Of a stretch of 32,000 nucleotides of DNA, positions 20,678 through 30,614 are shown piece after piece. The notes under the pieces were generated by a model, which was not told the DNA's origin, made no database searches, and saw only the letters and a list, made by a program, of their open reading frames with translations. Source of the stretch: Acaryochloris thomasi RCC1774. GTDB taxonomy: Bacteria; Cyanobacteriota; Cyanobacteriia; Thermosynechococcales; Thermosynechococcaceae. Every line of letters starts with the position of its first letter. The first letter of the stretch is position 1. The position numbers and the translations under genes are program-made. The stretch covers positions 60,001 through 92,000 of the forward strand of contig NZ_PQWO01000018.1 in assembly GCF_003231495.1 (NCBI RefSeq), in the 5' to 3' direction.

Positions 20678-21070
20678 TTACTGGGGAAGGGCCGATTGAA
20701 TTGCTTGAATTAAGTCCTGCTCTTGCCAAGGCTTTGCTAGGCAGGTATGGAGGTTCGCTTGATCATGAGCTCGCTCAACCGCGTCGTGATCAGCTTGCCC
20801 TGTCAACATAATTTTAACCACGCCGGGGAAACGCTGATGGACGTCAATCAGGAGTTCGTCGCCTTTGGCTCCCGGCATTAGCCAATCAGACACGATCACT
20901 AATAGATCTGTCCCTTCGCCCTGGAGTTCTTCGATAATTTCTAGGGCTTCGCTGGCATTCTCTGCCGTTTCGTAGAGATAGGTATCATCGAAGGCTGTCT
21001 GGAGCTGTCGCAGTAGGCTATTGAGGATGATCGCTTCGTCATCAACGCAAAGAATCGCTAGTTTAGACAT
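20678..21070 (-). CDS. single-domain response regulator (CheY-like REC)
   Basis: 130 aa reading ILCVDDEAIILNSL...LVIVSDWLMPGAKG...IMLTGQAD...LAKPW. Its start overlaps the upstream stop by 8 nt, and its stop is 3 nt from the next start. Confidence 0.92.
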   Translation of the reverse strand: MSKLAILCVDDEAIILNSLLRQLQTAFDDTYLYETAENASEALEIIEELQGEGTDLLVIVSDWLMPGAKGDELLIDVHQRFPGVVKIMLTGQADHDAVERAHDQANLHTCLAKPWQEQDLIQAIQSALPQ

Positions 21071-24000
21071 GATGGTTTCCGGGTTGAGGATTCATGGGTA
21101 AAGACACGATGAAGGTCGTCTGCGAGGGTATCGATTCAAAGGTGATGGTGCCTTGATGCTTATCGATGATCTTTTTGACAATATCGAGTCCCAGTCCGCT
21201 GCCTTCGCCAGGGGGCTTGGTTGTAAAGAAAGGCTCAAAAATGTTCGCTTGGACCTCTGGAGGGATGCCACTACCGCTGTCGGTGATTTTTACCTGTGCG
21301 CTGCCGCCGAGTTCCTGCAGGCTGACCTCCAATGTGCCTTTGTAGTCCATGGCCTGTAGGGCATTGTGAATCAGATTCGTCCACACTTGGTTGAGTTCAT
21401 CGGCATAGCACTTTACGGGAGGGATGGCATCGAGGCTACGAATTACTGTGACGCCGTGCTTGATTTGGTTCTGGTAAAGGGTGAGGACGGCTTCAATGCC
21501 ATCTGTAAGGTTGACCGTCATCATTTCGCCGCTGTGGTCGTAGCGGGCGTAGGTTTTGAGGGCAAACACGATCTTGGCGGCGCGATCGCTAGCGCTGTTG
21601 ATGTCTCGGGCGCTCTCTTGCACCCGCGTAAATTGACGCGCCATTTTTAGAAGCGGTTCGCTACTCGGATTTGTCAGCAAGGGCAGTAGGGCATCGAGAT
21701 CGCTGTAGATGTTCAGGTCAATAAGCAAGCTAGCCAGATCGCTGGCGTTTGCAATTTCATGGTGGCCCAGTTGCTTGGCTAGGTTTTTGCGTGCTTGACG
21801 ACGCTCCCGCCCTGAGAGCTTGGTGGTTGACTGGAGCGATCGCTGGAGCAGGCTTTGAAACTGCTGCTCTTGTTCTGGGGAGAGGGTTCGAAAGAAGTGG
21901 GGGAGCGTTTGTAGGTTGTTGTGCAAGAAGTTATTGATGTACTGAATAGAGGAGCCAATGGCACCCAGGGGCGTATTAATCTCGTGGGCGATACCGGCAA
22001 TAAGCTGTCCCAGAGCGGCCATCTTTTCGGACTGAACCAGTTCTTGTTGAGTGAGCTGTAGTTCTTTGACGGTTTGAGAAAGGGTTTGGGTACGCTCATC
22101 GACTTTTTGCTCTAGGTTGGCGTAGAGACGAGCGTTGTCAATTGCGATCGCAACCTGTCCCGACAGCAGCTGCAGTAGTTCTAATCGATCGGGGGTAAAA
22201 GCACTGGTGGTTAAATTATTTTCCAGATAGACCATCCCACTGAGCTGTCCCAGGTTGAGGAGTGGCATACACAAAATTGACTGGGTCTGTCGCTCTTTGA
22301 TGTAGGGATCTTGAGTGAAATCACCGGCTTGACTGGCATGGGATAAAACCACGCTCTCCTGCGTGCGGTTGACGTAGTTCAATAGCGTCTGAGGAACTTG
22401 CCCCACTATCGGTGTGGACTGGAGGACGCTATAGGTCTCAGACTCGGTGTTGGCAGAGGCCTCAATCAGGAGACCGTCGCTGTTAAGAATGAGATAGCCA
22501 ACCTGGGCACCGGCATTGCGCACCAGGATTTGAATGAGAGTCATCAACAATTTGTCGAGGACAATCTCCGTTGAGATGGCCTGAGATGCCTGCAGAACAG
22601 TGGCTAAATCTAGCGATTGGCTGGTACGAACGGTGTGAGTTGCTGTGGAAGAAGAAGAAGGTCCCGATGCCGTTGTGAAGACTGCCTTAGAAAGGTTAGG
22701 GTACTGCTGTTCTAGCTGCTCGACCTTTGCGGTTGCCCCCCACCGGAAGTAGCCATAGTAGGCATCTTTCAAATAGACCTGGGCAATCTTGTCTCGATTT
22801 TGCCGCTGGTAGAACTGAGCTGCAAGTTCATTCGCAAGCGCTTCTTCTTGAGGGTAGTCGTGGGCTTGGGCCGATGTGATCGCATGATCATAGGCCACCC
22901 CTGCCTCTGCTATTTGTCCTAAACAGCGATAGCGTTCTGCTTCGACTAGCTCATATTTATGCCGGTGGTTCTCTGGGGCATGTTCAGCCCACTGCTGCAG
23001 CTGTTGCTGGTTGGCATTGACCTGCTCTAGTGCCTGCTGCTGCTCCGATTCATAAAGGTGCTCAAAACGGGCCAGCCGAGTTAAAGAGTCATAGAAGTTC
23101 AGCACGGCAATGGTGTAGGCGGCGGTCATTCCATCGGCGTTGTTTTCTGCCAACTGTGTACAGCTTAAAGCGGTTTCGTAGTCCGCCAGTAAATAGCAGA
23201 GCATTGCTTTATGCGTGTAGAAGAAGGCCAGAGCCAGTTTGTTGTCGGCACTCTCCACCGTGACCTCGGCTTCCTGGAGAAATTCTCCGTTGAGTTTGCT
23301 TAGGTCAGAGGCTTGGCCTCTGAGGTTTGCGAGGGTCTGCTGATAAATCTTCAGGTATAGATGGCAGGCGGCTTGCTTTAGGGTTGCGATCGCAAAATTA
23401 TAGGCAGCCATCCGAGTCGCTAACGCTTCTAGTTCTCGACCCGTGAGTAGACTGTGCATGGACTCCCAGCAGAGCGAGTAGCAGGCATATTCCACATCGC
23501 CTGTGTCCAAGCCGATTTGATAGCCGCTGTGAAGATCGGCAATCGTAGCGCTGAGCGGATCCTCCCAGTGACGCACAAACGCATTGAAGACAAACATTAC
23601 CCGACTTTTCGCCTGCTTGGCCTCGAACTTATCCACCACCTGCAGCGCCAAGCGCCCAAACTGGTAGCCCGAAGCAATATCGCCCACCGCCCCGCACAGC
23701 GTGATGCCGTAGCAGTCATAGGCAAAAGCCGAAGCTGCTGTATTGCCATACTCTAACGAGAGTCGAATTTGGGTGAGGTTGCTGAGAATAAACCGTTCAA
23801 AAGCGGCCTGATAGCCAGAAGATAAAATGTCCGATAAAATCTGCATTGCCGCCAGCTTTTCAGGATCCGTCATCGCAGGCAAATCAATCAAACCTTCGAT
23901 GGAGCGCTGATGCTGTAGAGCCTGAGTTCGCTGTAGCTCAAGCTGTAAATTTTCTGGCGTCGGTTCCGGGAACTGAATGCCTAGCTGCCCTAAAATTTCA

Positions 24001-26534
24001 AAACCAATATCGGTTGCTTCAAAATGTCGATTCTGAGACGAACAGGCCAGAATCTTCACCCGATAGACTTTGACTTTATCTAGAACACAGCGGGCCTTCT
24101 GCAGAATGATTGCCGTTAGCTGCTCTTGCTTTTCGTAGTCCTGATTCAGATAGGCCGCCTCACTGGCCGCCTCATAAAGCCCCAGGGCTAATTCATAGGT
24201 GTTTTGCCAGCCATCCGGTCCTAAAAGCGTCACCCCTGTTAGTAGATAGTTCATCGCAGCTTGGTAAGCGGTTGCCGACTTCGCCTTCTGACCCGCCTGA
24301 AAATTGAGCTGCGCTAACTGCTGTCGTTCAGCCGGTTCAGAGATCAGATCGAGTGCTTGATTGAGATGATCCACGACCTCAAAGATGCGGTCTGCCAGAC
24401 CTTCTTGGGTCACGCCGTCTCTGAGCAGACGACCAATACGGAGATGAACCGGTGCTTTTTGTTCTGGGGTAATCAGGGCATAGGCAGCCTGCTGGATGCG
24501 GTCATGGCCGAAGCGAAAGCGTTCAATTGTTAAATCTGCTGTCAATTCAGACAGGGGAATCACTAAACCACACTGAATCGTCGGCTTGAGATCAGCAAAA
24601 ACGGTTTTGAAAGACTTCTGTTGAATAATGGCAAGGGTCGCCAGATCAAACTGAGCGCCGACGCAGGCCGCCAGCCGCAGTCCTTCTTGGGTGGCGCTTG
24701 ACAGCTTCTGGAGTTTGCCAATCAGCAGCTCAATGACGTTATCGGTCAAATCTTGGGCCTGAATCTGCTCCATGTCCCATTCCCAGAGGCGGGATGCTTC
24801 ATTAAACTGCAGCAGTCTTTCACTGTGGAGACTCTTGAGAAATTCGTTGACGAAAAAGGGATTGCCTTCTGTTTTCTGAAGCACTAATTCCGCGAGGGGA
24901 TCTAGTTCAGCCTGACTGTGCTGCAGTGTATCCGTGATTAGCTGACTGAGGTGCGTCAGCGATAGGGGGGCCAGGGTAATCGTATTGACTGTCACACTCT
25001 GGGTCTCAAAGTGGTTTAACAGGCTCATTAATGGATGCGCCGCACTGACTTCATTGTCACGGTAGGCACCGATCACAAGCAGCGATCGCATCTTACTATC
25101 GGTCATCATTCGCTGCATCAGCTTCAGGCTGGCAGAATCAGCCCACTGCAAATCGTCTAGGAACAGCACTAGCGGATGCTCGGGATCACAGAAAACCCGA
25201 ATGAAACTTTGAAAAACCAGATTGAAGCGGTTTTGAGCCTCTGTTGGACCCAGCTCTGGTACCGGGGGCTGCTTTCCTGTAATCAGAGCTATTTCAGGGA
25301 TCACATCAATGACCACCTGACCGTTTGGTCCCAAAGCTGCTAGCAAGCGCTGCCGCCACTGGGCTAGCTGGGTCTCGCTTTCCGTTAAAAGCTGTTTGGC
25401 AAGGCTGCGAAAGGCAGCAATCACTGCGGAGTAGGGCACATCCCGCTGAAACTGGTCATATTTACCGGCGATGAAGTAGCCGCGCTTCTCGGTAATGGGC
25501 TTATGGACCTCCGCCACTAGAGAAGACTTGCCAATCCCGGAATACCCTGCCACCAGCATTAATTCGCTGGTGCTGGTGGATTGGCTGATGCGCTCGAAAG
25601 CCGCCAGCAATATTGCTTTCTCGGCCTCTCGCCCATAGAGCTTTTGTGGAATCTGGAAGCGACCGGATAAATCTTGAGTGCCGAGGACGAAAGGTGCAAT
25701 CTTACCTGTGCTGCGTAACTGCTCTCGGCAGTTTTCCAAATCAGCCTGGAGGCCCGCCGCGTTCTGATAGCGGTCCTCAGCCGTTTTAGCCATCAGCTTC
25801 AGCGTCAGATTAGACAAGACCTGCGGCACCGCAAGATTAATTTGATGCGGTGGCTTGGGTTGATGGGCAATATGACAGTGAACCAGTGCCAAAGCATCTT
25901 CGGTCGGGAATGGTAACTGCCCCGTCAGCAGCTCATAGAATGTAATGCCGAGAGAATAGAAGTCCGTTCGGTAGTCTAGGGAGCGATTCATCCGTCCGGT
26001 TTGCTCCGGTGACAGATAGGCCAGCGTGCCTTCTAATACCCGTGGGTTTTTGAGGGTGGGGTTCTCACGGCTCAACTGGGTTGAAATCCCAAAGTCGATG
26101 ATTTTAAGCTGTCCTGAGGCTGGGTTGACAATGATATTGCTGGGATTAATATCTTTGTGAATGACGTTACGGCTGTGAATATGCCCCAGGATTTCGACAA
26201 TCTTGAGAGCTAAATCTAGAAACTCCTCCAGCGGCACTGCCTGCCCTTGGAACCACTCTTTGAGGGATTGCCCTCCAATGTCTTCGAGCACCATCGCTAA
26301 AGTGCGCTGATAGGGTTCTAACCCATAAACCTGAACTGTACCTTCGATGTCAAGATTGCTCGTGATTTCATATTCTTGGCGATAGCGGGTCAGTTCGGCC
26401 GAGGTGGGATAGTCTTCTTTCAAGATTTTGATAATGACAGGCTGATCAGGGTCGCCTCGATGACCCCGATAGACTAATGAATTCGCGCTCTCATAAATGT
26501 GCTTAGTCAAATTACAGCCGACAACACCCGTCAT
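21063..26534 (-). CDS. multidomain Ser/Thr protein kinase - P-loop NTPase (AAA_16/STAND-like) - TPR-like helical region - GAF - histidine kinase (HstK-like dual kinase)
   Basis: The STK motifs are VIIKILK (beta3 Lys), HKDINPSNIIV (catalytic loop), IDFGIS and AYLSPEQ. Walker A is VAGYSGIGKSSLV and Walker B is LVLFLDDLQWAD. About 700 aa of helical repeats follow. The GAF region ends ...LCMPLLNLGQLSGMVYLEN. The H-box is SEKMAALGQLIAGIAHEINTPLG, and the ATPase boxes are WTNLIHNALQAM, DSGSGI and EGSGLGLDIV. Confidence 0.93.
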   Translation of the reverse strand: MTGVVGCNLTKHIYESANSLVYRGHRGDPDQPVIIKILKEDYPTSAELTRYRQEYEITSNLDIEGTVQVYGLEPYQRTLAMVLEDIGGQSLKEWFQGQAVPLEEFLDLALKIVEILGHIHSRNVIHKDINPSNIIVNPASGQLKIIDFGISTQLSRENPTLKNPRVLEGTLAYLSPEQTGRMNRSLDYRTDFYSLGITFYELLTGQLPFPTEDALALVHCHIAHQPKPPHQINLAVPQVLSNLTLKLMAKTAEDRYQNAAGLQADLENCREQLRSTGKIAPFVLGTQDLSGRFQIPQKLYGREAEKAILLAAFERISQSTSTSELMLVAGYSGIGKSSLVAEVHKPITEKRGYFIAGKYDQFQRDVPYSAVIAAFRSLAKQLLTESETQLAQWRQRLLAALGPNGQVVIDVIPEIALITGKQPPVPELGPTEAQNRFNLVFQSFIRVFCDPEHPLVLFLDDLQWADSASLKLMQRMMTDSKMRSLLVIGAYRDNEVSAAHPLMSLLNHFETQSVTVNTITLAPLSLTHLSQLITDTLQHSQAELDPLAELVLQKTEGNPFFVNEFLKSLHSERLLQFNEASRLWEWDMEQIQAQDLTDNVIELLIGKLQKLSSATQEGLRLAACVGAQFDLATLAIIQQKSFKTVFADLKPTIQCGLVIPLSELTADLTIERFRFGHDRIQQAAYALITPEQKAPVHLRIGRLLRDGVTQEGLADRIFEVVDHLNQALDLISEPAERQQLAQLNFQAGQKAKSATAYQAAMNYLLTGVTLLGPDGWQNTYELALGLYEAASEAAYLNQDYEKQEQLTAIILQKARCVLDKVKVYRVKILACSSQNRHFEATDIGFEILGQLGIQFPEPTPENLQLELQRTQALQHQRSIEGLIDLPAMTDPEKLAAMQILSDILSSGYQAAFERFILSNLTQIRLSLEYGNTAASAFAYDCYGITLCGAVGDIASGYQFGRLALQVVDKFEAKQAKSRVMFVFNAFVRHWEDPLSATIADLHSGYQIGLDTGDVEYACYSLCWESMHSLLTGRELEALATRMAAYNFAIATLKQAACHLYLKIYQQTLANLRGQASDLSKLNGEFLQEAEVTVESADNKLALAFFYTHKAMLCYLLADYETALSCTQLAENNADGMTAAYTIAVLNFYDSLTRLARFEHLYESEQQQALEQVNANQQQLQQWAEHAPENHRHKYELVEAERYRCLGQIAEAGVAYDHAITSAQAHDYPQEEALANELAAQFYQRQNRDKIAQVYLKDAYYGYFRWGATAKVEQLEQQYPNLSKAVFTTASGPSSSSTATHTVRTSQSLDLATVLQASQAISTEIVLDKLLMTLIQILVRNAGAQVGYLILNSDGLLIEASANTESETYSVLQSTPIVGQVPQTLLNYVNRTQESVVLSHASQAGDFTQDPYIKERQTQSILCMPLLNLGQLSGMVYLENNLTTSAFTPDRLELLQLLSGQVAIAIDNARLYANLEQKVDERTQTLSQTVKELQLTQQELVQSEKMAALGQLIAGIAHEINTPLGAIGSSIQYINNFLHNNLQTLPHFFRTLSPEQEQQFQSLLQRSLQSTTKLSGRERRQARKNLAKQLGHHEIANASDLASLLIDLNIYSDLDALLPLLTNPSSEPLLKMARQFTRVQESARDINSASDRAAKIVFALKTYARYDHSGEMMTVNLTDGIEAVLTLYQNQIKHGVTVIRSLDAIPPVKCYADELNQVWTNLIHNALQAMDYKGTLEVSLQELGGSAQVKITDSGSGIPPEVQANIFEPFFTTKPPGEGSGLGLDIVKKIIDKHQGTITFESIPSQTTFIVSLPMNPQPGNHHV

Positions 26535-27040: not shown

Positions 27041-29029
27041 ATGCCCTCATCTTTTACAGCCCTGAATACTGAGTCTCTGAATGTTGTTCAGCCACCTGTG
27101 CCGGCTCTAAAGAAAACAGAGGCTCATCCTGAGCCTGTCCCCCACGCTCTCAGGACTGCTCGCAAAAAATATAAGTACAACTACGCCCATATTGCGCCAG
27201 TCGCGATGGTAGACAAGCTGCCGCGCGAGGAGAGACCCAGTCTGGTCTGGTGGAGAAAGGTGATTCGGGTCATGCTCGAAATCTTTATCAACGCCATCGT
27301 TAGCAAGCGAGGTCATGTTGAAGAAGTACAGGCCCGTCACCATGTCGCCCACCTCGTCAGACAAACGGTGATCGATATCTTTCAGCAGGCAGATTTCAAA
27401 ACGAAACTTCGGCTGGGTTGGCATCTGCTCAGAGCAGTTCCCCAACTCCTTTGGAAGGGATTCAGGTTGGGACTGCATGAGTGGGAAGATCTGGTTCTGA
27501 GTCTGATTTCAGAGGTCGAGAAAGATATTCTGCTGGCGCTCCACGGCGGCGTCAAGGCTCGCGTTGATCAAGACCGCCACTGTGTGACAGCCACGAGTCT
27601 GGAGGACTACAACAGGCAGTTTGCCACGATTGCACTACCTGCGATCGCAACTCATTTCCAAGAAGATGAATACTTCGCCTACCTACGGATAGCGGGTCCC
27701 AATCCTACGATGCTTGAGCAGGTCCGCGTTTTGTTTGGCGACATCCTCAGCCAAAAATTTCCGGTGACAAACGATCACTATCAAGCCGTCATGGGCACTG
27801 ATGATTCCCTGGAGAAAGCTTTAGAAGAGAGCCGCCTCTACATTGCGGACTACGCCATTCTGGCAGGAGCTATCAATGGCACCTATCCTGGCACCCACCC
27901 CAAATATATTGAAGCGCCTCAGGCGCTATTTGCTGTCCCTCGGGGCGGTTCCGCATCACGAAACCTGCGGCCCATTGCGATTCAGTGTGGTCAGGTTTCG
28001 GGTACGAACGTACCAATTGTGACGCCCTCGACGAACGAATCCGAGCGATACGCTTGGGAAATGGCCAAGGCTGTGGTTCAGGTGGCCGATAGCAACTACC
28101 ACGAAGCCATTGCCCACTTAGGTCGCACGCATCTGTTTATTGGCCCCTTTGCGATCGCAACCCATCGGCAACTTCTGCCGGAGCATCCCCTTAGTGTTCT
28201 ACTGCGCCCGCACTTTGAGGGCATGCTCAACATCAATGATGGGGCTCAAAATCTGCTTATGGCTCCCCGAGGTGGCGTTGATAAGAATTTGGCGGCTACG
28301 ATTGACTGCGCGCGCGCAGCGACTGTCGCTGGCTTGCAGAGCTACGGCTTCAATAGCGCCATGCTGCCCAAACGGCTTGAGCAGCGCGGTGTTGCCGATC
28401 TAGAGGCATTCCCGGTCTATCCTTACCGCGATGATGCCCTTTTACTGTGGGATGCCATCAAAGACTGGGTTGCGGCTTACCTCGGTCTTCATTACCAAGA
28501 CGATACCGCAGTCCAGCAGGATCAGGCGCTCCAGAACTGGGCAGCAGAGCTGATTGCCTTTGATGGCGGTCGCGTCGTTGACTTCGGTGAAGACGGTGAG
28601 ATTCGGACTCTCTCATACCTGATTGATGCGGTGACGTTAATCGTTTTTACTGCCAGCGCCCAACATGCTGCTGTCAACTTTCCGCAGGGAGATGTGATGA
28701 CCTACGCTCCGGCGATGCCTCTGGCAGGATATGCTCCGGCTCATCCGCTCACCACCGCTAGCGAAGCAGATTATTTTGAGCAGCTTCCGCCGCTGCATCA
28801 GGCACAGGGACAGCTTGAGCTGACCTATCTGCTAGGACAGGTCTATCACACGGTACTGGGTCAGTATGACTTGGGCTGGTTTCGTGACGGGCAAGAGCAG
28901 AGCGCCCTCCAAGACTTTCAAGAGAGATTGGTGGAGATTGAAGATGCGATCGCAACCCGTAACCAAACCCGTCCCTATCCCTACTGCTATCTGCAGCCTT
29001 CCAAAATCCCCCAAAGCATCAATATTTAA
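27041..29029 (+). CDS. lipoxygenase (non-heme iron fatty-acid dioxygenase), bacterial type without obvious PLAT domain
   Basis: The LOX motifs are YAWEMAKAVVQVADSNYHEAIAHLGRTHL (WxxAK; His354-x4-His359), SAQHAAVNFPQ (His542-x3-Asn546) and a C-terminal ...KIPQSINI ending in Ile, the C-terminal carboxylate iron ligand. An in-frame TGA lies 6 nt upstream of the ATG. Confidence 0.9.
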   Translation: MPSSFTALNTESLNVVQPPVPALKKTEAHPEPVPHALRTARKKYKYNYAHIAPVAMVDKLPREERPSLVWWRKVIRVMLEIFINAIVSKRGHVEEVQARHHVAHLVRQTVIDIFQQADFKTKLRLGWHLLRAVPQLLWKGFRLGLHEWEDLVLSLISEVEKDILLALHGGVKARVDQDRHCVTATSLEDYNRQFATIALPAIATHFQEDEYFAYLRIAGPNPTMLEQVRVLFGDILSQKFPVTNDHYQAVMGTDDSLEKALEESRLYIADYAILAGAINGTYPGTHPKYIEAPQALFAVPRGGSASRNLRPIAIQCGQVSGTNVPIVTPSTNESERYAWEMAKAVVQVADSNYHEAIAHLGRTHLFIGPFAIATHRQLLPEHPLSVLLRPHFEGMLNINDGAQNLLMAPRGGVDKNLAATIDCARAATVAGLQSYGFNSAMLPKRLEQRGVADLEAFPVYPYRDDALLLWDAIKDWVAAYLGLHYQDDTAVQQDQALQNWAAELIAFDGGRVVDFGEDGEIRTLSYLIDAVTLIVFTASAQHAAVNFPQGDVMTYAPAMPLAGYAPAHPLTTASEADYFEQLPPLHQAQGQLELTYLLGQVYHTVLGQYDLGWFRDGQEQSALQDFQERLVEIEDAIATRNQTRPYPYCYLQPSKIPQSINI

Positions 29030-29066
29030 CCCCTAGTTCCCTACCCACCCCCAGAGGACAATTTTC

Positions 29067-30614
29067 ATGGTCTTGGACCTTTCCACCTCCAGTCAAGCCC
29101 CCCGGCAATCGCTTCGCGCGCTAATCTGGAACCGTTTTCTGCAACCCCTACTGCAGAGAATATTCAGATGGCTGACCGCTTCTAAAGCCCAGCCCTTCGA
29201 AGATATCCCAGGGCCGACCCCGATCTTTCCGACTGGGAACGTTTTAGACTTTCAAAAAGATCCCACCTGGGAAGTCTTGGGTAACTACGCCCAACAATAC
29301 GGAAACGTCGCTCGCTTCTGGATGCTGTTTCGACCCTGCCTAGCCGTTAACGATCCAAAGCTAATTCACCAAGTTCTTTCAGGGGTGGGGGAACAGTCAC
29401 CGGAAGTCGCAGAAAGCCGCTGTCCCCTGCACAATAACCCAATCTACAAGTTCTATAAAAACCAGCCGCGCAAAGCGCTGCGGCCCATGCTGACCGACAC
29501 CAATCCCTTTGAAGCTGCAGCTGCAGATGCTCACTGGAAAGATTTGAAGCAGAACCATCCTTTCAGCATGGATTACTTTGATGACTGGCTCGGGTCGCAG
29601 ATCGAACCCCTCCATGCCTTCATAGAAACAAGAGCGACAGAACTGGTCGCAGCCTCTAACCAAGCGGGTGAATTATCGGCCTATGACGCCATTCAAAAGC
29701 TGACCTTTGACGGATTTTCGTTAGCAACCGTGGGGCAAGTTTTCCCGGACGAAGTTTTTGAGCAGTTTAACTCCATGTGCCAGACCGGTACGAGTCGGAT
29801 GACGCGCTCGACCTTGGCAACATGGCTGATTCCAGAAAAGCCGTGGGATCGTACCTATCGCAAAGTAAGCAAAGCCTGGTTCAACCGCTTTGAACAGATC
29901 GTCAGCTTAGAAGAAGCGCCAGCCAACTCGCTGCTAGGCTGGGTGCTTCGCAAAGGCGGCACTAATTTTGAGGCCGAAAAGCTGCGTAATTTTTGTGCCG
30001 GTGTCTATCCCGGTGGAGCCGTCTCTACCCCCAGCGGTATTACGTCAGCGCTCCATCTTCTTCATCAGCACCCAGAAACTCTGGCCGCTCTCAAAGCAGA
30101 AGTCAAAGACTTCTTTGCTGGTCCCCTGACGTTAGAGCGACTGGAAGGCTGCACTCAGCTTGATCAGGTGATGCGTGAATCGCTACGGCTCTGGCCTGCC
30201 GTCCCGTTTTTCCTACGGACGGTTAATCAAGGTGGTGCCGAATTAGCAGGGCACTCCATTCCAGCAGGTACCCCCATTTTTATGAGTAACTGGTCGCTGC
30301 AGCGCCTTAGCGATCATTGGTCAGAGCCAGAGACTTTCAACCCAGCCCGATGGGATGCAGAGACCTGCCGTCAGAACGACTGGGGAAGTGACTACTTCTT
30401 TCCCTTTGGACGGGGCGATCGGGCCTGCATTGGTCAATATTTTGCACGTTATTTTATGAAGCTTGTGTTAGCGGTCTTAGTCTCAAAGTTTGGAGTGACC
30501 TTTGGTGATCAATCCCCTGAGCAAGAGTTCTTCTTCGGCGTCGCGGTTCCGCGCCAGTTGAAGGCACAATTTATTTACTCGAGCAAAGATTTGCCAAAAT
30601 ATTCTGGGGATTGA
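29067..30614 (+). CDS. cytochrome P450
   Basis: The Cys-ligand loop is FPFGRGDRACIGQYFA, the K-helix ExxR is VMRESLRLWP, and the PERF-like motif is ETFNPARWD. The I-helix region is CAGVYPGGAVSTPSGITSALHLLHQHPE. AGAGGA lies 8 nt upstream of the ATG, and the gene starts 37 nt after the LOX stop. Confidence 0.92.
   Translation: MVLDLSTSSQAPRQSLRALIWNRFLQPLLQRIFRWLTASKAQPFEDIPGPTPIFPTGNVLDFQKDPTWEVLGNYAQQYGNVARFWMLFRPCLAVNDPKLIHQVLSGVGEQSPEVAESRCPLHNNPIYKFYKNQPRKALRPMLTDTNPFEAAAADAHWKDLKQNHPFSMDYFDDWLGSQIEPLHAFIETRATELVAASNQAGELSAYDAIQKLTFDGFSLATVGQVFPDEVFEQFNSMCQTGTSRMTRSTLATWLIPEKPWDRTYRKVSKAWFNRFEQIVSLEEAPANSLLGWVLRKGGTNFEAEKLRNFCAGVYPGGAVSTPSGITSALHLLHQHPETLAALKAEVKDFFAGPLTLERLEGCTQLDQVMRESLRLWPAVPFFLRTVNQGGAELAGHSIPAGTPIFMSNWSLQRLSDHWSEPETFNPARWDAETCRQNDWGSDYFFPFGRGDRACIGQYFARYFMKLVLAVLVSKFGVTFGDQSPEQEFFFGVAVPRQLKAQFIYSSKDLPKYSGD

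What the first reader, a model, noticed from the sequence alone, without database searches (positions are those of the whole stretch)
30012..30038. P450 I-helix lacks the conserved acid of the acid-alcohol pair (GGAVST instead of (A/G)Gx(D/E)T(T/S))
Anchoring on SGITSALHLLHQHPE, which aligns with the SGLSWALYLLAKHPE-type segment of CYP4-like enzymes, places G-G-A-V-S-T where O2-activating P450s have e.g. E-G-H-D-T-T. The acid is replaced by Val and the first Thr by Ser. P450s that rearrange peroxides or hydroperoxides instead of activating O2 (CYP74, thromboxane and prostacyclin synthases, fungal hydroperoxide isomerase domains) characteristically degrade this proton-relay motif. That fits a hydroperoxide-converting role next to a LOX. 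It is only suggestive, because some true monooxygenases also deviate here.
Basis: inference. Interest (0 to 1): 0.6.

Follow-up and report, generated by a model that had tools for sequence, protein, structure and literature searches.

The report
Lipoxygenase-partnered P450 without its catalytic acid
The cytochrome P450 gene just after a lipoxygenase gene belongs to an unstudied bacterial P450 family that has lost the acid residue used to activate oxygen. The family almost always sits beside, and is occasionally fused to, a lipoxygenase, so it most likely reworks the lipoxygenase's fatty-acid hydroperoxide directly.

Summary
GGAVST is residues 316-321 of the 515-aa P450 (window 29067-30614, +), at nt 30012-30029. 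Three independent alignments place it ungapped on the canonical AG-x-(D/E)-T-T motif, in the middle of the predicted I-helix. So the acid is Val319 and the Thr is Ser320.

The change marks a whole family, not one gene:
- An exhaustive profile search gave 138 family domains. None has Asp or Glu at that position, and 118 have Ser, never Thr.
- Among 120 lower-scoring P450 domains in the same hit list, taken here as canonical, 102 have Asp/Glu (85%).

The family is tied to lipoxygenase (LOX):
- 26 of 41 loci from five phyla have an adjacent LOX, in both gene orders.
- Five genomes where the two genes are unlinked all carry a LOX elsewhere.
- All 9 P450-bearing genomes of the order have LOX.
- Two natural P450-LOX fusion proteins exist, neither with a recognised reductase domain.

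The fold is closest to fatty-acid and carotenoid monooxygenases (CYP97, CYP184A1, CYP102, CYP4). It is not CYP74.

Best reading (0.62): an independently evolved P450 that converts hydroperoxides without activating O2. The product is unknown and no enzyme assay exists. I found no characterised member in the literature library.

This scan has already reported the same family on other DNA (Acaryochloris and others). A STAND-type Ser/Thr kinase also recurs next to the pair.

The parts
27041..29029 (+). Lipoxygenase, 662 aa, the presumed supplier of the hydroperoxide substrate
   Evidence: Pfam PF00305, 207 bits. Closest solved relatives are bacterial 15-LOX 8x8f and the P. aeruginosa LOX 4g32 (E about 1e-111). 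Iron ligands are readable: H354 and H359 in HEAIAH, H542 and N546 in HAAVN, and the C-terminal Ile662.
29030..29066 (+). 37-nt LOX-P450 spacer with an AGAGGA Shine-Dalgarno-like element about 8 nt before the ATG
   Evidence: Sequence read directly. The scan found no terminator-like site in the spacer.
29067..30614 (+). Cytochrome P450, 515 aa, member of an unnamed LOX-linked bacterial family
   Evidence: Pfam PF00067, 163 bits. Family profile domain score 742.7 bits. AF2 pLDDT 88.4, pTM 0.88. VIA Z 36.2 to CYP97C1.
29097..29198 (+). N-terminal helices (residues 11-36 and 38-44) before the Pro-rich PGPTPIFPTGN hinge (29208-29240). Possibly a membrane-surface anchor (inference).
   Evidence: AF2 secondary structure, pLDDT 85-95. 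Homologues at 64-82% identity cover 97-99% of the query, so this N-terminal region is retained in them.
29451..29492 (+). Highly conserved basic segment FYKNQPRKALRPML in the B'-C region (Lys131 invariant). Candidate substrate-recognition site (inference).
   Evidence: Family alignment consensus and invariant columns.
29973..30068 (+). I-helix, residues 303-334
   Evidence: DSSP on the AF2 model shows one continuous helix, 303-334.
30012..30029 (+). GGAVST, the altered oxygen-activation motif: Gly316-Gly317 kept, acid replaced by Val319, Thr replaced by Ser320
30177..30188 (+). K-helix ExxR (ESLR). The PxRW (PERF-type) motif lies at 30342-30353.
   Evidence: E371, R374, P426, R428 and W429 are invariant in the family.
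30399..30434 (+). Canonical Cys-ligand loop FPFGRGDRACIG (Cys454), with no insertion
   Evidence: It aligns ungapped to PFGAGPRxCIG of canonical P450s.
21063..26534 (-). Context: giant Pkinase-AAA_16-GAF-His-kinase gene, divergent from LOX. Homologues recur beside the LOX-P450 pair in other phyla.
   Evidence: Pfam. Neighbourhood comparison.

Best explanation
The gene encodes a heme-thiolate P450 that takes the fatty-acid hydroperoxide made by the co-transcribed lipoxygenase and transforms it directly at the ferric heme, without O2 activation and without a redox partner.

Shown:
- It has a normal P450 fold, Cys loop, ExxR and PxRW.
- Its I-helix keeps the Gly-Gly opening over the iron.
- A hydrophobic residue (Val319) replaces the proton-relay acid, and an invariant Ser (Ser320) replaces Thr.
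- The family is genetically coupled to LOX.

Inferred mechanism:
1. The hydroperoxide oxygen coordinates Fe(III).
2. The O-O bond is cleaved. Homolytic cleavage gives an alkoxyl radical plus Fe(IV)-OH, as in AOS, HPL, DES and TXAS. Heterolytic cleavage with intramolecular oxygen transfer would follow the fungal LDS/EAS route.
3. Ser320 positions or hydrogen-bonds the peroxide, as the axial Asn or Thr is thought to do in other such enzymes.

The product cannot be predicted from sequence. It could be an allene oxide, an aldehyde plus oxo-acid, a divinyl ether, an epoxy-alcohol or a diol.
For: 1. Register and acid loss are confirmed.
2. The loss defines the family. Of 138 family domains, 0 have Asp/Glu and 118 have Ser at the next position. 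Of 120 lower-scoring (canonical) domains, 102 have Asp/Glu. The nearest outgroups and most other P450s of the same genome keep H-E-T-T.
3. LOX linkage. There are 24 strong adjacent pairs plus 2 with a divergent LOX among 41 loci, from Cyanobacteriota, Planctomycetota, Spirochaetota, Myxococcota and Alphaproteobacteria. 23 of the 24 are on the same strand, and most spacers are 2-110 nt. Both gene orders occur, and one locus has two tandem pairs.
4. Co-occurrence when unlinked. All 5 such genomes tested have a LOX elsewhere. Within the order, the P450 is in 9 of 48 genomes and LOX in 26 of 48, and all 9 P450 genomes have LOX.
5. Pairwise identities of the P450s and of their LOX partners correlate (r = 0.92).
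6. Natural fusions exist. P0115 is P450-PLAT-LOX with the motif G-G-A-L-S-T. P0160 is a P450 plus a LOX-like C-terminus. Neither shows a recognised reductase domain.
7. No ferredoxin or reductase neighbour is conserved.
8. Precedent from the literature (PMC13049297). Independent hydroperoxide- or endoperoxide-converting P450s keep G-G but lose the pair: plant AOS has N-T-w-G-G-M-K-I, fungal 9R-AOS has G-G-V-G-T-P, and TXAS has A-G-Y-E-I-I. Self-sufficient fungal 8R- and 9R-AOS keep a polar Thr at the axial site, so an invariant Ser is compatible with this chemistry.
9. Minor sister subclades carry (R/K)-N or H-P at these two positions. An Asn there recalls PGIS and CYP74.
Against: - There is no biochemical datum for any family member.
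- The closest solved folds are all O2-dependent monooxygenases: CYP97C1, CYP184A1, CYP102A1, CYP4B1.
- The Cys loop, including the Phe seven residues before Cys, is fully canonical.
- A hydroxyl residue is strictly retained at the Thr position. From my own knowledge, Thr-to-Ser P450cam mutants stay active and CYP51 has His in place of the acid, so acid loss alone does not prove loss of O2 activation.
- Bacterial P450 redox partners are often encoded elsewhere, so their absence nearby is weak evidence.
- Gene linkage would equally fit a monooxygenase acting on a LOX product.
Confidence: 0.62

Rival explanations
1. Conventional monooxygenase. The P450 hydroxylates or epoxidises a fatty acid, or the reduced LOX product (a hydroxy-fatty acid). 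It uses O2 and electrons from a general cyanobacterial ferredoxin system. Ser320 serves as the alcohol, and solvent or another residue stands in for the acid.
For: The nearest folds are fatty-acid and carotenoid monooxygenases. The Cys loop, ExxR and PxRW are canonical. The hydroxyl residue is invariant. Some true monooxygenases lack the acid (my own knowledge, e.g. CYP51).
Against: None of 138 family members has the acid. P450-LOX fusions carry no recognised reductase domain. No redox-partner neighbour is conserved. The P450 is never found without LOX in the genomes tested. Ser is never Thr, which is unexpected if the standard relay were merely conserved.
Confidence: 0.2
2. Hydroperoxide-driven peroxygenase or peroxidase. 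The P450 uses the LOX hydroperoxide as an oxygen donor to oxidise a second molecule, or simply reduces and detoxifies it, rather than isomerising it.
For: The same context evidence applies. The peroxide shunt is general P450 chemistry (my own knowledge).
Against: No candidate co-substrate gene is conserved next to the pair. Known fused or paired dioxygenase-heme systems act intramolecularly on the hydroperoxide. There is no CYP152-type Arg-Pro motif, and the NCBIfam CypC model scores 18 bits against a 600-bit cut-off.
Confidence: 0.1
3. Non-catalytic or sensor heme protein. It would bind an oxylipin or a gas and act with the neighbouring STAND kinase, not as an enzyme.
For: Pkinase-AAA_16 proteins recur as neighbours. 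Related P450s are fused to cNMP-binding domains: P0131 and the ORF upstream of the P450 in L036.
Against: The full catalytic scaffold and substrate-site segments are under strong conservation. Myxobacterial pairs and most Leptospiraceae pairs lack the kinase. I know of no precedent for a sensor P450.
Confidence: 0.04

Closest known systems
CYP74 clan (plant, algal and metazoan allene oxide synthase, hydroperoxide lyase, divinyl ether synthase, epoxyalcohol synthase)
   Same: A P450 partnered with a lipoxygenase. The I-helix keeps Gly-Gly but lacks the acid-alcohol pair. The expected chemistry needs no O2 or reductant.
   Different: It is not a relative. Here the Cys loop is canonical with no insertion, and there is no I-helix Asn three residues before G-G (Val313 instead). 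Ser, not Ile/Val, occupies the Thr position. The best fold matches are CYP97, CYP184, CYP102 and CYP4.
Fungal dioxygenase-P450 fusion enzymes (8R/9R-AOS, linoleate diol synthases, 10R-epoxyalcohol synthase)
   Same: A fatty-acid dioxygenase is coupled, there by fusion, to a self-sufficient P450. The 9R-AOS I-helix G-G-V-G-T-P resembles G-G-A-V-S-T-P, with a polar hydroxyl residue and no acid. Fusions also occur in this family (P0115, P0160).
   Different: The fungal partner is a heme (COX-like) dioxygenase, not a non-heme-iron LOX. The organisms are eukaryotic. Relatedness of the P450 domains was not tested here.
Thromboxane synthase (CYP5A1) and prostacyclin synthase (CYP8A1)
   Same: These P450s isomerise a peroxide made by an upstream dioxygenase, have a disrupted acid-alcohol pair and use no redox partner. 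TXAS keeps a canonical Cys loop (my own knowledge), as this protein does.
   Different: Their substrate is an endoperoxide (PGH2). TXAS keeps the Glu and loses the Thr, the opposite pattern. PGIS has an axial Asn.
Catalase-related AOS fused or adjacent to LOX (Acaryochloris marina, Nostoc, corals)
   Same: The logic is the same in the same bacterial lineage: a LOX plus a heme partner that converts the hydroperoxide (papers cited within).
   Different: That heme partner has a catalase fold with a Tyr ligand, not a thiolate P450.
CYP102A1 (BM3), CYP4B1, CYP184A1, CYP97 (nearest solved structures)
   Same: Overall fold (Z 34-36, TM about 0.8), a fatty-acid-sized active site in several of them, and a canonical heme-binding loop.
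   Different: All carry the (D/E)-T pair and need O2 plus electrons. None is LOX-linked.

Membership tests
Cytochrome P450 superfamily (PF00067) | Profile match above the curated cut-off | tested here: met
   163.3 bits against a 22.8-bit cut-off, residues 48-489.
Cytochrome P450 superfamily (PF00067) | Cys-ligand loop FxxGxRxCxG, K-helix ExxR and the PERF-type motif | tested here: met
   FPFGRGDRACIG (445-456), ESLR (371-374) and PARW (426-429). All are invariant or nearly so in the family.
Cytochrome P450 superfamily (PF00067) | P450 fold | tested here: met
   AF2 pLDDT 88.4. VIA Z 36.2, rmsd 2.7 Å over 428 residues to CYP97C1. Foldseek TM about 0.8 to BM3.
O2-activating (classical) P450 monooxygenases | I-helix acid-alcohol pair (A/G)Gx(D/E)T(T/S) | tested here: not met
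   The motif is G-G-A-V-S-T: acid replaced by Val319, Thr by Ser320. 0 of 138 family domains carry Asp/Glu.
O2-activating (classical) P450 monooxygenases | Activity depends on O2 and a redox partner | not testable with these tools
   This needs an enzyme assay. No redox-partner gene is conserved nearby, which is weak evidence only.
CYP74 clan | Catalytic I-helix Asn in F-N-x-x-G-G (AOS Asn321) | tested here: not met
   The residue three before Gly316 is Val313, and the position is not conserved in the family. The motif is quoted from PMC13049297.
CYP74 clan | Non-canonical heme-binding loop with an insertion before the Cys (my own knowledge of CYP74 structures) | tested here: not met
   The loop aligns ungapped on canonical PFGAGPRxCIG.
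CYP74 clan | Closest sequence or fold neighbours are CYP74 enzymes | tested here: inconclusive
   No CYP74 entry appears among the rows shown by Foldseek or VIA, or among the 60 PDB sequence hits shown. A family that is not listed is not thereby excluded.
CYP152 fatty-acid peroxygenases | Family profile match and I-helix Arg-Pro (the Arg-Pro feature is my own knowledge) | tested here: not met
   The NCBIfam CypC model scores 18.4 bits against a 600-bit cut-off. There is no Arg-Pro in the I-helix.
Unnamed LOX-linked bacterial P450 family (as delimited here) | Family-profile domain score well above canonical P450s (220 bits or more, against 163 or less) | tested here: met
   742.7 bits. The window's own protein is in the seed alignment, so its score is partly circular. 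The gap between the two groups was seen across 258 domains.
Unnamed LOX-linked bacterial P450 family (as delimited here) | I-helix G-G-x-(hydrophobic)-S signature | tested here: met
   G-G-A-V-S here. Ser occurs in 118 of 138 domains and G317 in 135 of 138.
Unnamed LOX-linked bacterial P450 family (as delimited here) | Lipoxygenase gene adjacent, fused or elsewhere in the genome | tested here: met
   LOX lies 37 nt upstream on the same strand. Family-wide evidence.
Self-sufficient hydroperoxide- or endoperoxide-converting P450s (functional class) | Turns over a fatty-acid hydroperoxide without O2 or reductant | not testable with these tools
   This needs purified protein and a UV/LC-MS assay.

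The most novel reading that the evidence does not exclude
The family would be a further, independent origin of self-sufficient hydroperoxide-converting P450s, recognisable by G-G-x-hydrophobic-Ser. Its product would be a dedicated bacterial oxylipin signal that is sensed by, or made under the control of, the Pkinase-STAND-GAF protein recurring next to the pair. In this genome that protein feeds a receiver, then a His kinase, then a GGDEF relay. The result would be an oxylipin-to-second-messenger pathway in bacteria.
Probability: 0.15. Interest if true: 0.85.

Novelty: new variant of a known kind. Interest (0 to 1): 0.58.

Why it matters
What bacterial lipoxygenases are for, and what happens to their hydroperoxides, is largely unknown. 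Apart from the few CYP74-clan genes reported in some Proteobacteria (abstract of PMC8124189), the known downstream heme partners in bacteria are catalase-related enzymes.

A widespread non-CYP74 P450 family dedicated to LOX products would matter in four ways:
- It would add a new branch to oxylipin biochemistry.
- It would be another case of convergent loss of the P450 oxygen-activation machinery.
- It would offer cofactor-free biocatalysts for making oxylipins.
- It gives a simple sequence signature for finding such enzymes.

The recurrent STAND-kinase neighbour also gives a concrete handle on a possible signalling role.

Tried and rejected
- Word-indexed search for longer (fused) relatives found nothing. 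The exhaustive profile search later did find fusions, so the earlier blank was a sensitivity limit.
- Many long hits in the exhaustive search (P0105, P0113, P0129, P0139, P0149 and others) are tandem canonical P450 domains with D/E-T motifs and per-domain scores of 163 bits or less. They are not family members.
- Literature searches covered LOX, P450 and cyanobacteria; Myxococcus; Acaryochloris; gene clusters; MXAN locus tags; and CYP227. None found a characterised member. The library lacks most subscription journals, so this does not prove that none exists.
- An earlier scan note named family CYP227. The only relevant paper (PMC3411444) merely lists a primer for CYP227A1 of Nostoc punctiforme. 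I could not check whether this protein belongs to that family, so I assign no CYP name.
- NCBIfam has no specific model. The ESM Atlas gave only generic P450 clusters.
- Expression: no RNA holder was listed, and read laying was not run.
- Promoter and terminator scans were no richer than shuffled sequence.
- CYP74 and PGIS structures do not appear among the rows shown by the Foldseek and VIA searches. This is stated as an absence only.
- The other two LOX genes of this genome (contigs C45 and C3) have no P450 or catalase-like neighbour.
Full report
**What is there**

The window carries a 662-aa lipoxygenase (27041-29029, +). After a 37-nt spacer with an AGAGGA ribosome-binding-like element and no terminator-like site comes a 515-aa cytochrome P450 (29067-30614, +). 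The LOX has a readable set of iron ligands and is closest to bacterial 15-LOXs. GGAVST is residues 316-321 of the P450, nt 30012-30029. The finding's end coordinate (30038) only adds Pro-Ser-Gly.

**Register**

Four lines of evidence agree:
- phmmer against PDB sequences aligns the segment from Tyr314 to the H-P-E motif without gaps onto L-L-A-G-H-E-T-T... of CYP184A1 and A-G-H-E-T-S of CYP97A3.
- A profile-profile comparison of a 37-member family alignment (A1) with a 10-member canonical P450 alignment (A2) gives the same ungapped register: G-G-a-i-S over A-G-h-E-T.
- An HMM-anchored alignment of 258 P450 domains agrees.
- The AlphaFold2 model (pLDDT 88.4, pTM 0.88) has one long helix at 303-334 with the motif at its centre.

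So Val319 takes the place of the acid and Ser320 the place of the conserved Thr. No other acidic residue lies between residues 311 and 324.

**It is a family trait**

Homologues at 31-82% identity all show (F/Y)-x-G-G-x-(V/I/F/Y)-S. Ser320 is invariant in the 37-sequence alignment. An exhaustive profile search of 1.84 billion representatives separates two groups cleanly by per-domain score: family members at 220 bits or more, other P450s at 163 bits or less.

| Position | Family (138 domains) | Lower-scoring P450s (120 domains) |
|---|---|---|
| 319 (acid) | Asp/Glu in 0 | Asp/Glu in 102 |
| 320 (alcohol) | Ser 118, Thr 0, Pro 9, Asn 5, others 6 | Thr 101, Ser 14 |

Five of the 7 other full-length P450s in the same genome carry a standard motif (L-A-G-H-E-T-T, V-G-H-E-T-T or A-G-Y-E-V-T), and this P450 has the lowest Pfam score of the full-length set. 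The Cys loop (FPFGRGDRACIG), ExxR and PxRW are canonical and conserved.

**Link to lipoxygenase**

A genome-collection scan returned 41 loci.
- A strong LOX lies next to the P450 in 24 of them. In two more (Anabaena sp. 4-3 and Cyanothece sp. BG0011) the next gene is a divergent LOX with a Pfam E-value of about 3e-10.
- The pairs come from Cyanobacteriota (including Acaryochloris marina MBIC11017), Planctomycetota (Gemmatales, Kuenenia), Spirochaetota (Leptospiraceae), Myxococcota (Corallococcus, Myxococcus) and an alphaproteobacterium (Qipengyuania).
- 23 of the 24 strong pairs are on the same strand, and most spacers are 2-110 nt. The order is LOX then P450 in most lineages, but P450 then LOX in Leptospiraceae. 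One Leptospirales locus has two P450-LOX pairs in tandem.
- Identities among the P450s track identities among their LOX partners (r = 0.92). This fits long co-inheritance, although shared species phylogeny contributes.
- In five genomes where the P450 has no LOX neighbour, a LOX exists elsewhere in every case.
- Among the 48 genomes of the window's order, 9 have the P450 and 26 have LOX, and all 9 P450 genomes have LOX. The three congeners of this genome lack the P450 and show only weak LOX-like matches (best E about 1e-8), with no full-length LOX hit.
- Two natural fusions turned up. P0115 (1200 aa) is P450-PLAT-LOX with the motif G-G-A-L-S-T. P0160 (935 aa) is a P450 plus a LOX-like C-terminal half. 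Neither shows a recognised reductase domain.
- No ferredoxin or reductase gene is a conserved neighbour.

**What it resembles**

By fold, the nearest solved structures are CYP97C1 (Z 36.2), CYP184A1 with oleic acid (35.1), CYP102A1 (34.1), CYP4B1 (33.8) and CYP505A30. So the family descends from ordinary, largely lipid-oxidising monooxygenases. It is not a CYP74 member: it lacks the I-helix Asn and has no modified Cys loop.

A 2026 review (PMC13049297) documents how independent peroxide-converting P450s treat this motif:
- Plant AOS has F-N321-T-w-G-G-M-K-I.
- PGIS has Q-G-N287-M.
- TXAS has A-G-Y-E-I345-I.
- Fungal 9R-AOS has G-G-V-G-T957-P.

The same review notes that self-sufficient 8R- and 9R-AOS keep a polar Thr over the iron. 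The pattern here (G-G kept, acid lost, small hydroxyl residue kept) matches that class best, and the fungal 9R-AOS in particular.

**Most likely mechanism**

Shown: the fold, the motifs, the family-wide acid loss and the LOX coupling.

Inferred: the LOX product binds through its hydroperoxide to the ferric heme. The O-O bond is then cleaved without any O2 or proton-relay chemistry, and the resulting intermediate rearranges. Whether cleavage is homolytic (AOS, HPL or DES type) or heterolytic with oxygen rebound (LDS or EAS type), and what the product is, cannot be read from sequence. I put this reading at 0.62.

The main rival (0.20) is an ordinary O2-dependent hydroxylase or epoxygenase of a LOX product that uses Ser320 and a general ferredoxin. 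The canonical Cys loop, the monooxygenase-like fold and the retained hydroxyl keep that rival alive. Minor rivals are a peroxygenase or peroxidase role (0.10) and a sensor role (0.04).

**Novelty and prior notes**

I found no characterised member in the searchable literature and no specific NCBIfam model.

The scan has already reported the same family on other DNA: Acaryochloris and other genomes, notes e1-2766776, e1-3079154, e1-3076275 and e1-2766775. Their claims of LOX adjacency and occasional fusion were re-derived here independently. Their claim of green-algal members was not tested.

This is a new variant of a known kind of system: a dioxygenase plus a self-sufficient P450.

**Noticed alongside**

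A giant Pkinase-AAA_16 (STAND) signalling protein recurs beside the pair. In this window it is the divergent gene at 21063-26534, with a GAF and His-kinase output.
- Full-length homologues flank the pair, or the lone P450, in every cyanobacterial locus with enough flank.
- A 35%-identical homologue with a nucleotide-cyclase output abuts the P450 in a Leptospirales locus.
- Pkinase-AAA_16 genes follow the P450 by 20-22 nt in a Gemmataceae locus and an unclassified bacterial locus.
- This genome has only about five such kinases in 5.9 Mb.

This suggests, but does not show, that the oxylipin pathway is wired to signalling.

Noticed in passing
window 21063-26534 (-); L001, L003-L006, L022, L012:2612-7993, L041:9462-13910, L025:9394-13464, L016:4802-9301: A giant Pkinase-AAA_16 (STAND) protein recurs next to the LOX-P450 pair or the lone P450 in cyanobacteria, a Leptospirales MAG, Gemmataceae, Schlesneria and an unclassified bacterium. 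The sensor core is the same but the outputs differ: His kinase here, nucleotide cyclase or TPR elsewhere. The own genome has only about 5 such genes. This may be an oxylipin-signalling module. Background rates in the other genomes were not computed.
   Followed up: partly
P0115 (1200 aa) and P0160 (935 aa), metagenome proteins: These are natural fusions of a family P450 to a lipoxygenase. P0115 is P450-PLAT-LOX ending in Ile. P0160 is a P450 plus a divergent LOX-like half.
   Followed up: partly
L012:7971-14584: A Leptospirales locus carries two P450-LOX pairs in tandem (P450, LOX, P450, LOX), directly after the STAND kinase-cyclase gene.
   Followed up: no
family subclades (e.g. P0103, P0112, P0125, P0146, P0153; P0102, P0116, P0126, P0152): Minor sister subclades replace hydrophobic-Ser with (R/K)-Asn or His-Pro at the acid and alcohol positions. 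An Asn over the heme recalls PGIS and CYP74. Their gene contexts were not examined.
   Followed up: no
own genome G000:C45:4534-6519 (+) and G000:C3 (LOX at L061:7657-9333, -): The genome has two further lipoxygenase genes with no P450 or catalase-type partner. Their neighbours are a GMC-oxidoreductase-like gene and a 1269-aa protein with no Pfam match (C45), and an S41 peptidase and a glycosyltransferase (C3).
   Followed up: partly
G036-G038 (same genus as the window's genome): The three congeners lack the P450 and show only weak LOX-like matches (best E about 1e-8), with no full-length LOX hit. The pair is therefore accessory in this genus, either gained or lost recently.
   Followed up: no
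L009:6461-7849 (-): In a Planctomycetales locus, the gene next to the lone family P450 is a FadL/TodX-type outer-membrane long-chain fatty-acid transporter. This fits a fatty-acid-derived substrate.
   Followed up: no
L036:7044-8807 and P0131: Related P450s are fused to cyclic-nucleotide-binding domains. One sits directly upstream of a family P450 in a Polyangia genome.
   Followed up: no
window 27041-27600 (LOX residues 1-190): The LOX N-terminal extension aligns with the N-terminal helical region of the P. aeruginosa LOX (4rpe, query 44-662 onto chain 82-688). It is therefore the bacterial helical lid rather than a PLAT domain.
   Followed up: partly
own genome L055 and L056 (contigs C33, C16): Two other P450s of this genome also deviate in the I-helix (A-G-H-G-T-L and A-S-H-Y-E-V-S). 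They are not LOX-linked and not members of this family.
   Followed up: no
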